IMG/VR virus record: IMGVR_UViG_2529292922_000010
Length of the DNA stretch: 64,000 nucleotides
Strand: one strand, 5' to 3'
Source: a virus
Lineage: Duplodnaviria; Heunggongvirae; Uroviricota; Caudoviricetes
Positions 13,081 to 16,629 of the stretch are shown here, in pieces (within the stretch, counting starts at the first letter, position 1; each line of letters begins with the position of its first letter). The translations under genes and the position numbers were made by a program. A model generated the notes under the pieces. The model had not been told where the DNA came from, made no database searches, and worked only from the letters and a program-made list of their open reading frames with translations.

Positions 13081-13782
13081 TTATTCTGATTCTTGCTCAA
13101 AAAACGCGCTAATGAGAGGAAGCCAATCCTCTGACACTTCACGCGGTCGCGGTTTGCCATGGAAGAAGATTATTCGGCAGTCTTTTGGTAATGCCCCATT
13201 CCCCCTGGAGTAGCGCGCACTTGCATATTTCGAACCAGGTTCCACAACATCGGCCTTGTAACTTACAAACCATCCCGGATACAGATCCTGAAATGCTGGT
13301 GTATCATCGCCCATAACCTTCCGTAAGAACCCCTGATCACCCCAGCATTCAGTAGTAACACAACGAGCAATCCAACCTTCCGGATCTTGCCAGAATGCAC
13401 TCCAGATATGCGCTTTTACACTATTTGGTATCCACAGGGCACCGCTGCCACGATATTGTGGATGGTAAAAATCCCTAAGCATGGTGAAGCTGGTTGGTGG
13501 ATGCTCTAGGATTGGGCGTATATCACCGGCAATAACCGTGTCCAAATCCAGATAGAACAGATCATCGGTTATATCCGGTCGGAACAACTCTATTTTCGCC
13601 CACCAGCCACGGCACTTTTGCCACTGGTTGATCAATGGGACAACTTTGACGCCAGGTACATGTAAACGCTTCAGGTCTGTCAGGCAAATAATTTCATAGC
13701 CTTTTGGCAGTTGATTAACCAGCCACTGCACATCGGAAGCGTTATAGTCACCACCAGAGCGAAAAACTAAAGCAATCTTCAT
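13081..13782 (-). CDS. Putative GT-A-type glycosyltransferase-like protein, 233 aa
   Basis: LDLDTV (DxD-like) motif; tentative. Confidence 0.4.
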
Positions 13783-14471
13783 GCTGCACCATCACCTTTC
13801 ACTTTCATCAATGTCAGGTTTCCGCAAAATACGGCACCAGTGTCGATATACTGCTGATTCCAGAATGTCTTCGGGCTTTTCACCGGAGTGTGACCAAAGA
13901 TAAAACGATCTGCGCCCGAAATTTCGCCACCAATATCATCCATCGAATCACTGATACGCTCGCGCGCCCAGACAACGTTGAAAAGCGGCACCTCCTTACC
14001 GAATTGGTATTCATTATCCGGATAGTCGGCATGGGCTATAACGATAGTTTCTTGCCCGGTGTTCAACTCAATGATATAGGGCAGACGCTTTACCAGCTCC
14101 ACCAGCGCCCAGGCTAATATTTCCTGATCAGTGTCCAGCATGAAGAACCATTGTCCGCCATTCATTAGCCAGTTATTCACGTTGCCATCTGGACTTAACG
14201 CATCAATCATCAGCCGCTCATGGTTCCCCATCACTGCCCTGAACCAGGGCATCTGCAATAGTTCCAGACATTCGACATTTTCAGTACCGCGATCGATAAG
14301 GTCGCCGACCGATATCAGTAAATCCTGCGCCGGGTCAAAATCCACACGATGGAGTTCGGACATCAGTCTGGTGTAGCAACCATGCAGATCACCAACAACC
14401 CAGACATTCCTGTATTTGGTACCGTCGATACGGTGATAAATTGTGGGTGCCATCATGTATTCTTCAGCCAT
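13779..14471 (-). CDS. Ser/Thr protein phosphatase (metallophosphoesterase)
   Basis: GDLHG...GDLIDRG...GNHE motifs as in lambda-type phosphatases; P1 is recalled to carry such a gene (ppp). Confidence 0.8.
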
Positions 14472-15079
14472 TCTTTAAGAGTCATCTGCGGAATACCTCC
14501 CATTTTCCCGCATGAAACAACGTCAATCTGTTCACGCGCAGACTGGAATAACAAAGGCAGGTGACTTAGATTTTTTGGCGTGCCGCCGGAGTGAACGCGT
14601 GGTTCTTGTGTAGCGTCAACGCCCACCAGGGCGACATGTTTGAATCCGATATGGAAAGCCAGGTTCAGAGCACCATATGCACTATTGCCGCTGGCAATTT
14701 CATTCTCATCTTCGCAAAGGCCGAAATGTGCGGACCAGCGCCACGCCCACCACTCGGGAGAATTCGTATTTTTTGGCTCCATGCCGCGTTCAGCCACACG
14801 ACGGAAGCACAGAACGCCATCTCTGACTTCACGTTCTTTAACATCGGGTAGTGCCATGCAATAACAAACACCACGGCGACGGCGGCCACGACCAACGCGC
14901 CGCATATTGTCTGGGGATGGATCAAGGGTGAAAAAATAAGAAGCGCGGTTAAGCCAGTCGATGGCCCCATTGACCGCTATAATCGGCACTCCGCGCGGCG
15001 CAACAAAGTTTGCGGCGCTTGGGCCACTGCCGACGATAATAACGCGATCACTGCCTCTAAATTTATTCTTGGGAAACAT
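14453..15079 (-). CDS. Rossmann-like enzyme with N-terminal GSGPS motif, paralogue A, 208 aa
   Basis: VIIVGSGPS...IIAVN; paralogous to upstream gene; possibly MptE/DUF115-like transferase (unverified). Confidence 0.45.
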
Positions 15080-15606
15080 TGAATTGCACTGCTCCTACTT
15101 GCATTCAAAATATGTAAATCTGCGTGTTTTTTGCGGGTATCCAGGAACTGCTGTTGCCATTTTGAAATAGACACCTGCGTTGGATTCCGTAGGGCTTGAG
15201 GGTGCGCGCCATGCCAATGAAGGCCGTTTTGCAGAGAACAGTCATAGCCGACTAATACCACTACTTCAGCCCCTGATTCAGCAGCCAGACTGATAGCCTG
15301 CGCGCCGCTATTTACCCCTTCCGCCGGTCCACAATATCGCCTGTACTCCAACGAAAATGATTTCGCCGCCGCCAGGTTGGCTGTCACTTTGCGGAATCTC
15401 CCTCCCGGTATGGTGGATCCGTATTGCTTCCACCATGACAAATCACCGGCGTATAAGGCATAAATGTCATCGAACATCTGCCAGGAATTGTTAACCGCGA
15501 TGATTGAACAGCCAGTTTTTTCTATAGCAGCACAGTCCTCACGAGTGAGTGACGGACCGCTACCGACACAAAAAACAGTCCTAGTCGCCCTGGGTGGTAT
15601 GTTCAT
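14977..15606 (-). CDS. Rossmann-like enzyme with N-terminal GSGPS motif, paralogue B
   Basis: FCVGSGPS...IIAVN; start at 15606 preferred by alignment with paralogue A; 3' end overlaps paralogue A by ~100 bp. Confidence 0.45.
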   Translation of the reverse strand: MNIPPRATRTVFCVGSGPSLTREDCAAIEKTGCSIIAVNNSWQMFDDIYALYAGDLSWWKQYGSTIPGGRFRKVTANLAAAKSFSLEYRRYCGPAEGVNSGAQAISLAAESGAEVVVLVGYDCSLQNGLHWHGAHPQALRNPTQVSISKWQQQFLDTRKKHADLHILNASRSSAIQCFPRINLEAVIALLSSAVAQAPQTLLRRAECRL

Positions 15607-15802
15607 TCTCAGCTGCAAATTCAGCCTCCAGGCGAGCATTCATTTCAGCGATTACAGGGTCCACTACAGCATCTGTTTCCTGTTCATTACGCGGCATGAC
15701 CGATGCCAGCGACTCATAATTAACCTTGGATGACACGATTATTCTCCCGATGTTAAAGTGCACTACCACAAAGAGTGTACATGCACTAATTAATTTATTA
15801 TT

Positions 15803-16381
15803 TTAAGCGACATACAACCACTTATCGCCGTTCAATACATGCTCAATAGCCTCACCCTTTTTAAGGCTTATGTATTCCAGAATGGCGGTTATCGCTTGTT
15901 CTGCACCATACGCAAGAACGACGTAGTAACCTTCCTCTCTAAGCCTGCGCATCCAGGCGATCTGCTCTTTCGTCGGGGCTTTACCATTTGGTTCTTTAAG
16001 CTCAATTCGCATGCCGTGATAAATGCCGCATGCTTTATCGAGACTCATGTCCGGATAACCTTTTTTCTGCCCTTCAGCCTTCATTTTCCCGGCGGTTGCT
16101 TTTGAACGTTTCCCTCCGTTAGGCGTTGCATGCAACAGCTCATAGATGTCAGGGTGCTTGCGTTCGAAGTAATCAAAAATGAAAACCTGCTCGAAGTGCT
16201 CGCAATTTCCGTCGCGCAGGTCTGGGTTCTTTGCCAGTGCTGCAAGTGCCTTCGCATGTGGAGAAACTTCTTTTACCGGCGCAAGCGATAAGAATGGATC
16301 CTTTTTGGTTTTTGGCCTGGACCGCCCCTTATTTCGACGCTCACTAAAAGCCTGAAACTCTTCCTCAGTAAAGCGCAACAT
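15803..16381 (-). CDS. VRR-NUC-like nuclease, 192 aa
   Basis: GYPDMSL...IELKEP fits the VRR-NUC / PD-(D/E)xK motif. Confidence 0.55.
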   Translation of the reverse strand: MLRFTEEEFQAFSERRNKGRSRPKTKKDPFLSLAPVKEVSPHAKALAALAKNPDLRDGNCEHFEQVFIFDYFERKHPDIYELLHATPNGGKRSKATAGKMKAEGQKKGYPDMSLDKACGIYHGMRIELKEPNGKAPTKEQIAWMRRLREEGYYVVLAYGAEQAITAILEYISLKKGEAIEHVLNGDKWLYVA

Positions 16382-16383
16382 AA

Positions 16384-16629
16384 TCAGTCAAATCCTGCCG
16401 GTCGCATGCCATATTTACGCTGTTTTGCGGCCTGCTCTTCCCTGTGCCATTGCGCACACTCAGCGTCACAATAGATGCCTGATTCGATCGGTTCATTGCA
16501 GTAACGACACTTCCCTGTAAATACCTGGCTCACGACCTGTGCCTGCTTTCTGATGTTATCGATGGCCATGTCTTTGAGAGCTTCTAATTGATTCATGCTC
16601 AGCTCTGCATCATCAACACGTTCTGCCAA
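16384..16629 (-). CDS. TraR/DksA-like C4 zinc-finger protein, 81 aa
   Basis: CRYC-x13-C-x3-C. Confidence 0.55.
   Translation of the reverse strand: MAERVDDAELSMNQLEALKDMAIDNIRKQAQVVSQVFTGKCRYCNEPIESGIYCDAECAQWHREEQAAKQRKYGMRPAGFD

What the first reader, a model, noticed from the sequence alone, without database searches (positions are those of the whole stretch)
13081..16629. Accessory enzyme cluster: DxD transferase-like gene, Ser/Thr phosphatase, two overlapping paralogues with GSGPS motif, VRR-NUC nuclease, TraR-like zinc finger
Six consecutive minus-strand genes look enzymatic rather than structural. The two paralogues (14453-15079 and 14977-15606) share an N-terminal V.VGSGPS...IIAVN Rossmann-like signature that I tentatively associate with MptE/DUF115-type pyrophospho- or glycosyl-transferases, and they overlap by ~100 bp in different frames. 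Together with a DxD-containing protein and a separate GT-B-like gene at 21574-22548, this could be a nucleic-acid or protein modification module (for example anti-restriction DNA modification or surface glycan alteration). This is speculative: P1 itself has a phosphatase here, and the function of this whole block is, as far as I know, not established.
Basis: inference. Interest (0 to 1): 0.6.

Follow-up and report, generated by a model that had tools for sequence, protein, structure and literature searches.

The report
Phage P1 sugar-transferase gene cassette
This stretch is the already catalogued pmgL–pmgQ block of phage P1; inside it, three genes plus the distant gene dbn form a sugar-adding enzyme set that many unrelated phages also carry and whose target is still unknown.

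Summary

**Fold assignments**
- PmgO and PmgP are true distant paralogues (hhalign E 3e-13).
- PmgQ is GT8-like, with an invariant DxD motif.
- Dbn is GT4-like.

**Not one six-gene module**
- The conserved unit is pmgO-pmgP-pmgQ. It recurs next to each other in lambdoid, HK97-like, jumbo and other phages of Gram-negative hosts.
- Natural O-P, P-Q, Q-P and Q-P-methyltransferase fusions exist.
- In phage EP_H11 a Dbn homologue lies between the pmgP-like and pmgQ-like genes.
- ppp, pmgM (VRR-NUC nuclease) and pmgL (zinc finger) are independent passengers.

**Likely function**
The cassette probably builds a short glycan late in infection. The acceptor is unknown. I favour proteins, probably virion proteins, over lipopolysaccharide core. 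DNA modification is unlikely: published single deletions of all these genes change neither plaquing nor anti-restriction.

The genes are known and already annotated. The module-level picture appears to be unpublished.

The parts
13081..13782 (-). pmgQ: GT8-like (GT-A fold, retaining type) glycosyltransferase. Invariant D79-L-D81 and a C-terminal FHGxPRP motif with invariant His208.
   Evidence: ORF. The family alignment shows the invariant residues. The family profile matches solved GT8 enzymes: 6mw5 at E 5.7e-7, 5gvv at 0.003, glycogenin at about 0.05. It matches phrog_1962 'glycosyltransferase' at 1.6e-127.
13779..14471 (-). ppp: lambda NinI/PrpA-type Ser/Thr metallophosphatase. It is a passenger inserted between pmgP and pmgQ in P1-like phages only.
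   Evidence: Pfam Metallophos 9e-16, above cut-off. NCBIfam PRK11439 at 3e-81. It is absent from the cassette in all non-P1 loci. In phage D6 it occurs without pmgO/P/Q.
14453..15079 (-). pmgP: DUF115/MptE-like (Maf/GT42-like fold) putative transferase. It is the most conserved cassette member, 53-62% identical in Pseudomonas, Ochrobactrum and Alcanivorax prophages.
14977..15639 (-). pmgO: DUF115/MptE-like paralogue of pmgP (alternative start at 15606). Invariant SGPS, AVN, NSG, GYDCS, HWHGxH and NxSR motifs.
14977..15079 (-). 103-nt out-of-frame overlap of the pmgO 3' end with the pmgP 5' end. The same DNA encodes the PmgP nucleotide-binding loop and an unconserved PmgO tail.
   Evidence: Coordinates. 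A 94-nt overlap is kept in phiNP. Shorter overlaps or a gene fusion occur elsewhere. PmgO tails vary in alignment A1.
15581..15736 (-). pmgN: small ORF of 51 aa with a GTG start and a GGGAG ribosome-binding site. It is the first gene of the pmgN-pmgQ operon and has no detectable family outside P1-like phages.
   Evidence: P1 annotation. Sequence read. It hits only phrog_2350.
15780..15796 (.). C1 repressor operator Oppp (Op83), with the PpmgN promoter. It keeps the operon off in lysogens.
   Evidence: Transferred from the P1 annotation. The sequence is present in the window, with 4 mismatches to the operator consensus.
15803..16381 (-). pmgM: VRR-NUC (PD-(D/E)xK) nuclease. It is unrelated to the glycosylation cassette.
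   Evidence: phmmer to the solved VRR-NUC structure 4qbl gives E 3.5e-17. Pfam VRR_NUC scores 21.2 bits, just under the cut-off.
16384..16629 (-). pmgL: small C4 zinc-finger protein (CxxC-x9-CxxxC), DksA/TraR-like only loosely.
   Evidence: phrog_54 'DksA-like zinc-finger' at 1.7e-13. No Pfam zf-dskA_traR hit. Translation.
16687..16703 (+). C1 operator O26 in the divergent pmgL / gene 26 promoter region, which also holds the late promoters LPpmgL and LP26.
   Evidence: Operator scan: 2 mismatches to consensus; 10 sites in the window against 0.29 expected. P1 annotation.
21574..22572 (-). dbn: GT4-like GT-B glycosyltransferase with an E248-x7-E256 motif. It is a distant fourth member of the cassette.
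   Evidence: Pfam Glycos_transf_1 scores 25.1 bits against a cut-off of 26.4. It is 48% identical (E 3e-107) to the EP_H11 ORF lying between the pmgP-like and pmgQ-like genes. All 22 phage records with a Dbn match also appear in the PmgP and/or PmgQ match lists.

Best explanation
The block is a composite of three units.

**Unit 1.** pmgL (zinc finger) and pmgM (VRR-NUC nuclease) form a separate late-transcribed pair.

**Unit 2.** ppp is a lambda-type protein phosphatase that has been inserted as a passenger.

**Unit 3, the functional core.** This is a mobile glycosylation cassette made of pmgO, pmgP and pmgQ, working with dbn, which lies 6 kb away.
- PmgO and PmgP are paralogous DUF115 enzymes of the Maf / GT42 sialyltransferase / WaaZ type. 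Characterised transferases of this type use CMP-activated ulosonic acids. In E. coli K-12 the only such donor is CMP-Kdo.
- PmgQ is a GT8-type retaining hexosyltransferase.
- Dbn is a GT4-type GT-B enzyme.

**Proposed action.** Together the four enzymes assemble a short oligosaccharide on an acceptor reachable from the cytoplasm. Some other phages methylate the product. Synthesis happens during lytic growth: in P1 the operon is repressed by C1, and in other phages the cassette lies in late operons.

**Proposed acceptor.** I think protein is the most likely acceptor, probably virion protein, modified in the Maf manner.

**Shown:** the folds, the paralogy, the conserved gene linkage and fusions, the late-gene context and the dispensability of each gene.

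**Inferred:** the donor sugars, the acceptor and the biological benefit.
For: **Folds**
- The family profile reproduces the Cst-II motifs GPSL, TSG and GxD, though weakly.
- E. coli WaaZ itself scores 6.9e-7 against PF01973.
- PmgQ matches GT8 structures at 5.7e-7.

**Gene linkage**
- The O-P-Q order is conserved in phiNP, metagenome contig L003, EP_H11, XacN1 and prophages of Pseudomonas, Zhongshania, Commensalibacter, Brevundimonas and Sinomicrobium.
- Fusions exist: O-P (P0051), P-Q (P0220, P0291), Q-P (P0307) and Q-P-methyltransferase (P0270).
- Dbn sits inside the cassette in EP_H11.
- Extra glycosyltransferases and three different kinds of methyltransferase neighbour the cassette.

**Late or structural context**
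- After the lysis genes and before the small terminase gene in phiNP and Alcanivorax L092; after the lysis genes in contig L003.
- Directly after the major capsid gene, or one connector-like gene further on in Ochrobactrum.
- PmgO-like genes lie between the capsid and head-tail adaptor genes in phage D3. In PAJU2 the homologue follows the head-tail adaptor gene and is annotated 'structural protein'.

**Protein-acceptor hints**
- The best GT8 matches are enzymes that extend protein-linked glycans.
- A chromosomal O/P/Q trio lies among Ser/Thr-rich Ig-repeat adhesins in Pseudescherichia.
- XacN1 virions contain at least two glycoproteins (PMC5852040).
Against: - There is no biochemical evidence for any activity.
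- P1 PmgO and PmgP score below the Pfam gathering threshold.
- Single deletions and CRISPRi knockdowns of pmgO, pmgP, pmgQ, ppp and dbn give no plaquing defect.
- Recent P1 capsid and tail-baseplate structure papers, and the P1 virion proteome paper, do not mention glycans.
- PmgP is 53-62% identical across phages whose structural proteins are unrelated. That fits a universal host acceptor better than a phage protein, unless PmgP extends a sugar rather than starting the chain.
- In large lytic phages the cassette lies among nucleotide-metabolism genes.
Confidence: 0.5

Rival explanations
1. Lipopolysaccharide core remodelling. PmgO and PmgP act like WaaZ and add extra Kdo from CMP-Kdo to the inner core. 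PmgQ (GT8, like WaaO/WaaJ) and Dbn (GT4, like WaaG/WaaB) add hexoses. This masks the core glucose that P1 uses as its receptor, which would block superinfection or stop progeny being lost on cell debris.
For: - WaaZ belongs to the same Pfam superfamily (PF01973 at 6.9e-7).
- The O-P fusion carries a precomputed faint WaaZ_KDO_III hit.
- GT8 and GT4 are the families that build the E. coli core (established knowledge; the waa cluster is shown).
- All hosts of cassette-bearing phages are diderm bacteria that make Kdo-containing LPS.
- High PmgP conservation across distant hosts fits a universal acceptor.
- CMP-Kdo is the only CMP-ulosonic donor in K-12 (established knowledge).
Against: - Direct profile comparison of PmgO and PmgP with WaaZ is weak (probability 10-14%).
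- The solved LOS GT8 enzyme LgtC was not among the PmgQ profile hits, whereas GT8 enzymes acting on protein glycans were.
- The cassette is repressed in P1 lysogens (Oppp operator) and lies in late or structural operons elsewhere. Known phage LPS-conversion genes are expressed from the prophage.
- Phage D3 keeps its PmgO-like gene in the head-tail gene cluster. From my own knowledge, not checked here, its serotype-conversion genes lie elsewhere.
Confidence: 0.22
2. DNA hypermodification. The enzymes glycosylate phage DNA to evade restriction.
For: - Phage glycosyltransferases can install diverse sugars, including Kdo, on 5hmC in DNA (bioRxiv 10.1101/2023.12.21.572611).
- In EP_H11, XacN1 and a Sinomicrobium phage the cassette lies near DNA ligase or ribonucleotide reductase genes.
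Against: - Deletion of each gene left P1 anti-restriction unchanged (PMC9024508).
- The described DNA glycosylation pathways need a hydroxylated base made by dedicated enzymes. No such enzyme turned up among the cassette neighbours that I scanned.
- In most temperate phages the cassette lies among late and structural genes, not replication genes.
- P1 DNA is a long-used cloning and sequencing substrate with only methylated bases reported (my own knowledge).
Confidence: 0.05
3. PmgO and PmgP are not glycosyltransferases. They are MptE- or thiamine-pyrophosphokinase-like enzymes that pyrophosphorylate a small molecule, for example a cofactor or a signalling nucleotide.
For: - The only Pfam family hit is named after MptE.
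Against: - Maf is the top structural hit for both proteins.
- The proteins are fused to, or sit next to, GT8, GT4 and small GT-A glycosyltransferases and sugar-type methyltransferases (TylF, FkbM) in many genomes.
- The Cst-II CMP-binding motifs are reproduced in the PmgO profile.
Confidence: 0.08

Closest known systems
Maf (motility-associated factor) flagellin glycosyltransferases, DUF115; solved structure 5mu5 from Magnetospirillum magneticum
   Different: Maf is about 630 aa with extra flagellin-binding domains, while PmgO and PmgP are bare catalytic domains of about 200 aa. Sequence identity is only 16-20%. The P1 host K-12 makes no pseudaminic or legionaminic acid. No acceptor is known for the P1 proteins.
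GT42 sialyltransferases Cst-I and Cst-II of Campylobacter jejuni (2p56, 1ro7)
   Different: The profile E-values are not significant (0.14-0.7). An equivalent of the catalytic His188 was not established. K-12 lacks CMP-Neu5Ac, so the database name is a fold label and not a function.
WaaZ (KdoIII transferase of the E. coli K-12 LPS core; CAZy GT73 from my own knowledge)
   Same: WaaZ hits the same Pfam family (PF01973) at a similar sub-threshold level (6.9e-7). It uses CMP-Kdo, the one CMP-ulosonic donor present in every host of these phages. It also works alongside GT8 and GT4 enzymes.
   Different: Direct profile-to-sequence similarity to PmgO and PmgP is weak (probability 10-14%). WaaZ is 283 aa and is encoded in the chromosomal waa cluster.
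GT8 retaining glycosyltransferases (glycogenin, Skp1 alpha-galactosyltransferase 6mw5, GlyE 5gvv, LPS WaaO/WaaJ)
   Same: The PmgQ family profile matches 6mw5 at E 5.7e-7 across the DxD motif and the C-terminal His motif.
   Different: Pfam Glyco_transf_8 is not hit. PmgQ is short (233 aa), and it forms its own family, phrog_1962.
Virion glycosylation cassettes of mycobacteriophages (reported for cluster F and other phages; my own knowledge, alluded to in PMC11256854)
   Same: These are also phage-encoded glycosyltransferases that are dispensable for plaque formation, proposed or shown to decorate capsid and tail proteins.
   Different: The enzyme families differ, with no DUF115 pair. The hosts are Gram-positive-type Actinobacteria. 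Glycosylation there has been demonstrated; here it has not.
Phage DNA glycosyltransferases (T4 alpha- and beta-GT, 5hmC glycan systems)
   Same: These are phage-borne sets of several glycosyltransferases. Some of them use Kdo.
   Different: They are GT-B enzymes that act on hydroxymethylated bases made by partner enzymes. P1 mutants show no anti-restriction phenotype.

Membership tests
MptE-like / DUF115 superfamily (Pfam PF01973) | Whole-protein score at or above the Pfam gathering threshold (34.6 bits) | tested here: not met
   P1 PmgO scores 23.4 bits and PmgP 20.9 bits. However, 33 of 34 PmgO-family members and 36 of 36 PmgP-family members hit at E<=1, and the natural O-P fusion P0051 scores 44.6 bits, above threshold.
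MptE-like / DUF115 superfamily (Pfam PF01973) | Fold of solved members: Rossmann-like core with an N-terminal GxGPS nucleotide loop | tested here: met
GT42 sialyltransferase (the RefSeq name of PmgO) | Significant sequence similarity to Cst-I or Cst-II | tested here: not met
   The profile search of PDB sequences gives E 0.14-0.7 for Cst-II and Cst-I. Only motif-level alignment is seen.
GT42 sialyltransferase (the RefSeq name of PmgO) | Catalytic histidine equivalent to Cst-II His188, and CMP-Neu5Ac as donor | not testable with these tools
   Conserved histidines exist (PmgO H141 and H143; PmgP H173), but no residue-level superposition was available. K-12 lacks CMP-Neu5Ac (established knowledge).
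WaaZ-type Kdo transferase | Detectable homology to E. coli WaaZ | tested here: inconclusive
   hhalign probability is 10-14%, covering the A..LG..I..G.D motif region. WaaZ and the Pmg proteins hit the same Pfam family. There is a faint precomputed PF27901 hit on P0051.
GT8 glycosyltransferase (PmgQ) | DxD metal/nucleotide-sugar motif and C-terminal His motif, aligned with solved GT8 enzymes | tested here: met
   D79, L80 and D81 are invariant, as are H208 and G209. The profile aligns both motifs with 6mw5 (E 5.7e-7) and glycogenin.
GT8 glycosyltransferase (PmgQ) | Hit to Pfam Glyco_transf_8 | tested here: not met
   No Pfam family is hit at E<=0.1.
GT4 / Glycos_transf_1 GT-B (Dbn) | Pfam Glycos_transf_1 at or above its cut-off, and the E-x7-E motif | tested here: inconclusive
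   Dbn scores 25.1 bits against a cut-off of 26.4. E248-x7-E256 can be read in the translation. No structure was predicted for Dbn.
PPP-family Ser/Thr phosphatase (Ppp) | Metallophos domain with the GDxHG, GDxxDRG and GNHE motifs | tested here: met
   59.3 bits against a cut-off of 21.5. GDLHG, GDLIDRG and GNHE are all in the translation. NCBIfam PRK11439 hits at 3e-81 but below its equivalog cut-off.
VRR-NUC nuclease (PmgM) | Similarity to a solved VRR-NUC domain, with the PD...ExK catalytic motif | tested here: met
   4qbl matches at E 3.5e-17, with GYPD and IELK aligned. Pfam scores 21.2 bits against a cut-off of 23.8.
TraR/DksA C4 zinc finger (PmgL) | Pfam zf-dskA_traR hit with four cysteines in CxxC...CxxC spacing | tested here: not met
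   No Pfam hit. Four cysteines are present, but spaced CxxC-x9-CxxxC. Only PHROG 54 'DksA-like' hits, at 1.7e-13.

The most novel reading that the evidence does not exclude
P1 and several hundred other phage lineages of Gram-negative bacteria use a DUF115-DUF115-GT8 cassette, with optional GT4, small GT-A and methyltransferase members. With it they O-glycosylate their own virion proteins with a short glycan that contains Kdo-type ulosonic acid and is sometimes methylated. This would be the first virion glycosylation system in phages of Gram-negative hosts, the first protein-linked Kdo, and it would sit in a paradigm phage for which the deletion mutants already exist.
Probability: 0.2. Interest if true: 0.8.

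Novelty: new variant of a known kind. Interest (0 to 1): 0.5.

Why it matters
P1 is a textbook phage, yet about a fifth of its genes still have no function. These 'putative morphogenetic' genes have carried fold-derived database names such as 'alpha-2,3-sialyltransferase' without any study.

Three or four of them form one conserved, mobile, often fused sugar-transfer cassette. It is shared with lambdoid, HK97-like, D3-like and jumbo phages across Proteobacteria, Bacteroidota and Gemmatimonadota. That turns a list of orphan genes into one testable pathway.

If the acceptor is virion protein, phage glycosylation would extend beyond mycobacteriophages. This bears on immune recognition of therapeutic phages. 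If the acceptor is LPS core, it would be a new receptor-masking strategy used during the lytic phase.

The deletion mutants needed for either test already exist (PMC9024508).

Tried and rejected
1. Pairwise BLASTP of PmgO against PmgP found only the 36-residue motif. Family profiles were needed. The first profile comparison was confounded by the O-P fusion protein in the alignment and had to be redone.
2. Single-sequence searches of PDB sequences with PmgO and PmgQ gave nothing significant. The PmgP profile also found nothing.
3. NCBIfam had no model for PmgO, PmgP, PmgQ, PmgM or PmgN.
4. A viral-contig scan with the PmgP alignment returned 80 near-identical P1 loci and gave no new context.
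5. The afdb50 fold library was unavailable, so WaaZ could not be compared by structure.
6. hhalign of the families against the single WaaZ sequence was inconclusive.
7. I wondered whether the nearby pap gene might encode a lipid-A-type PAP2 phosphatase that would support an LPS role. It is HAD/PNKP-like instead.
8. Literature searches for a function of pmgO/P/Q/dbn, for DUF115 in phages and for glycans in P1 structures found nothing.
9. Consensus promoter and terminator scans of the block found no more than chance.
10. The idea that all six genes form one module was rejected on comparative grounds.

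
Full report
**What is there**

The window is a P1-like phage-plasmid. Positions 13000-16700 are 98.5% identical to phage P1 coordinates 78531-82231 and 97.5-98.7% identical to P7, SJ46 and RCS47.

Transferring the P1 annotation onto the ORFs gives these genes, all on the minus strand:
- pmgQ: 13081-13782
- ppp: 13779-14471
- pmgP: 14453-15079
- pmgO: 14977-15639
- pmgM: 15803-16381
- pmgL: 16384-16629

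The GT-B-like gene at 21574-22572 is dbn ('downstream of ban').

From pmgN to pmgQ every gene overlaps the next, by 59, 103, 19 and 4 nt. This marks a translationally coupled operon. In P1 it is driven by a sigma-70 promoter under the C1 operator Oppp. pmgL and pmgM have their own C1-controlled and late promoters. C1 operator-like sites flank the block at 13014-13030, 13063-13079 and 16687-16703. The window holds 10 such sites against 0.29 expected by chance.

**Check of the observation**

- Ppp passes Pfam Metallophos and carries the GDxHG, GDxxDRG and GNHE motifs.
- PmgM matches a solved VRR-NUC domain at E 3.5e-17.
- PmgL is a four-cysteine zinc-finger protein that resembles DksA/TraR only at PHROG level.
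- The GSGPS...IIAVN signature is present in both PmgO and PmgP.
- Pairwise BLASTP sees only that motif. Profiles built from 34 and 36 homologues align over 164 columns with E 3.1e-13. The two proteins are therefore real, old paralogues.
- The 103-nt out-of-frame overlap is real. It encodes the conserved nucleotide-binding loop of PmgP and a non-conserved C-terminal tail of PmgO.
- A 94-nt overlap survives in Citrobacter phage phiNP at 41-58% protein identity.

**What the enzymes are**

*PmgO and PmgP.*
- AlphaFold models are confident, with pLDDT 87 and 94.
- Pfam MptE-like (PF01973) is hit by 33 of 34 and 36 of 36 family members, though below the gathering score for the P1 proteins themselves.
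- The RefSeq name 'alpha-2,3-sialyltransferase' is a fold label. Similarity to Cst-II is only at motif level (E 0.14-0.7), and E. coli K-12 has no CMP-sialic acid.
- E. coli WaaZ, the KdoIII transferase, hits the same Pfam family at 6.9e-7. This makes CMP-Kdo a plausible donor. Direct PmgO/PmgP-to-WaaZ comparison is inconclusive.

*PmgQ.* Its family profile matches GT8 enzymes: Skp1 alpha-galactosyltransferase at 5.7e-7, GlyE at 0.003 and glycogenin at about 0.05. The alignment covers the invariant DLD motif and the C-terminal His motif.

*Dbn.* It sits just under the Glycos_transf_1 cut-off and carries an E-x7-E motif.

**The block is not one module, but part of it is**

The trio pmgO-pmgP-pmgQ recurs as adjacent genes in very different backgrounds:
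- lambdoid phiNP of Citrobacter;
- a metagenomic phage contig in which O and P are one 376-aa protein, followed by a PmgQ-like protein and another small GT-A;
- Escherichia phages EP_H11 and IME392;
- the 385-kb Xanthomonas jumbo phage XacN1;
- prophages of Pseudomonas, Ochrobactrum, Alcanivorax, Zhongshania, Commensalibacter, Methylophilaceae, Brevundimonas, Sinomicrobium (Bacteroidota) and a Gemmatimonadota MAG.

In every non-P1 locus with enough flanking DNA that held a PmgP-like gene, a PmgQ-like gene lay adjacent or within about 3.5 kb.

A search of 1.84 billion representative proteins found 593 PmgP-family clusters. Among them are P-Q fusions (P0220, P0291), a Q-P fusion (P0307) and a Q-P-methyltransferase fusion (P0270).

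Dbn belongs to the same system:
- A 48%-identical homologue (E 3e-107) lies between the pmgP-like and pmgQ-like genes of EP_H11.
- A Dbn-like gene lies 3 kb from the Q-P pair in a Buttiauxella MAG.
- All 22 phage records with a Dbn match also appear in the PmgP and/or PmgQ match lists.

ppp does not belong:
- It is absent from every non-P1 cassette.
- It occurs without pmgO/P/Q in the P1 relative D6, among lambdoid nin/ea-type genes.

pmgL, pmgM and pmgN never accompany the cassette.

Optional neighbours are a small GT-A and methyltransferases of three kinds: TylF-like fused to PmgQ in XacN1, class I SAM-dependent, and FkbM. TylF and FkbM enzymes typically methylate sugars. This supports a glycan product.

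**Where and when it acts**

In P1 the operon is repressed by C1, so it is a lytic-phase function. In temperate phages the cassette lies in late regions:
- between the lysis genes and the small terminase gene in phiNP and Alcanivorax L092, and after the lysis genes in contig L003;
- next to a lysozyme gene;
- after the large terminase, portal or MuF genes;
- immediately after the major capsid gene in Pseudomonas and Zhongshania prophages, and one connector-like gene further on in Ochrobactrum.

PmgO-like genes on their own are more widespread, in 73 phage records. In Pseudomonas phage D3 one sits between the capsid and head-tail adaptor genes, with a methyltransferase a few genes further on. 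In PAJU2 the homologue follows the head-tail adaptor gene and is annotated 'structural protein'.

In three large lytic phages the cassette lies among ligase or ribonucleotide reductase genes instead.

**Which acceptor**

This part is inference.

*Points favouring protein.*
- The late and structural gene context.
- The closest structural relative, Maf, is a cytoplasmic protein O-glycosyltransferase.
- The closest PmgQ relatives extend protein-bound glycans.
- In Pseudescherichia, a non-phage chromosomal island scatters O, P and Q homologues among Ser/Thr-rich (22%) Ig-repeat proteins. These are an inverse autotransporter and Big_1/RCC1 giant proteins.
- XacN1 virions contain at least two glycoproteins, although its authors attributed them to other glycosyltransferases (PMC5852040).

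*Points favouring LPS core.*
- The kinship with WaaZ.
- The GT8 and GT4 company.
- The restriction of the cassette to Kdo-making diderm hosts.
- The high conservation of PmgP across phages whose structural proteins are unrelated.

*Points against DNA.*
- Published in-frame deletions of pmgL, M, N, O, P, Q, ppp and dbn were made. Only five of the 29 deletions in that study were essential, and none of these eight was among them. The 24 non-essential deletions showed no plaquing defect and no change in anti-restriction (PMC9024508).
- CRISPRi knockdown agrees, except for an unexplained 'essential' call for pmgN (PMC10695390).

*Caveats.*
- None of the P1 capsid, tail-baseplate or virion-proteome papers mentions glycans. 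This is mild evidence against heavy glycosylation of the major virion proteins.
- I found no paper that assigns a function to these genes.

**Verdict**

The object is the known, annotated P1 pmg block. The interpretation needs two corrections: only pmgO, pmgP and pmgQ (plus dbn) form a functional unit, and anti-restriction DNA modification is unlikely.

The unit is best described as a new variant of phage-encoded glycosylation cassettes, built around a pair of DUF115 enzymes. It has an unknown acceptor and no laboratory phenotype. Interest is moderate, because it is a clean, testable hypothesis in a model phage rather than a surprise in the sequence itself.

Noticed in passing
window 10937-11443 (-): P1 'Pap' is annotated as a putative acid phosphatase. 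It matches the HAD-type phosphatase domain of polynucleotide kinase-phosphatase (PF25109, E 5e-12). This suggests a nucleic-acid 3'-phosphatase rather than a generic acid phosphatase.
   Followed up: partly
window 15581-15736 (pmgN): CRISPRi scored pmgN as essential (EOP 1.4e-2, PMC10695390). Yet its in-frame deletion was made and is not among the five essential genes, and all the downstream genes are non-essential. Polarity therefore does not explain the result, and the discrepancy is unexplained.
   Followed up: no
L098-L102 (Pseudescherichia and related chromosomes), e.g. L098 235-12873: This is a chromosomal island that looks non-phage. PmgO-, PmgP- and PmgQ-like genes are scattered, in different orientations, among a 1178-aa inverse autotransporter with seven Big_1 repeats, Big_1/RCC1 proteins of 781-999 aa and other Ser/Thr-rich proteins. 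It may be a dedicated adhesin-glycosylation locus.
   Followed up: partly
L118 (phage D3) 5691-6409: The D3 annotation gives only a truncated orf7 that overlaps orf6.5. Reading frame 3 gives a PmgO-like protein extended upstream to include the SGPS loop, with its N-terminal part overlapping orf6.5 out of frame. The deposited orf7 is N-terminally truncated.
   Followed up: partly
L119 (phage PAJU2) 4781-5350; Klebsiella phage Eowyn 2336-2872: PmgO-like proteins are annotated 'structural protein' in these GenBank records. If that label rests on virion proteomics, a DUF115 enzyme travels with the particle. I could not check the basis.
   Followed up: no
L118 7748-8575 and L119 5332-6159: A conserved 275-aa protein has no Pfam hit. 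It lies two genes beyond the head closure gene in D3, and right after the PmgO-like gene in PAJU2. In both phages it is followed directly by a SAM methyltransferase, inside the head-tail gene cluster. Its N-terminus (RGMLGLGD) resembles heptosyltransferase-type GT-B enzymes; that resemblance is my impression only.
   Followed up: no
window 8769-9416 (-): An Ead/Ea22-like protein (PF13935, 4e-22) is encoded where P1 carries pmgT/U/V. The window is therefore a P1 variant with a lambdoid-type replacement in that region. PmgQ and Dbn are also closer to P7, SJ46 and RCS47 than to P1.
   Followed up: no
PmgQ homologues P0175 and P0176 (Salmonella): NCBI names these 72-73% identical PmgQ homologues 'phosphohydrolase'. 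This conflicts with the GT8-like evidence. The name was probably carried over from the neighbouring ppp gene.
   Followed up: no
BFVD matches to the PmgP model: DUF115-like folds are common in viral proteomes: 19 matches at E<=1e-3. They include uncultured Caudovirales proteins of up to 700 aa, Caulobacter phage Sansa and the giant virus ChoanoV1. All are uncharacterised.
   Followed up: no
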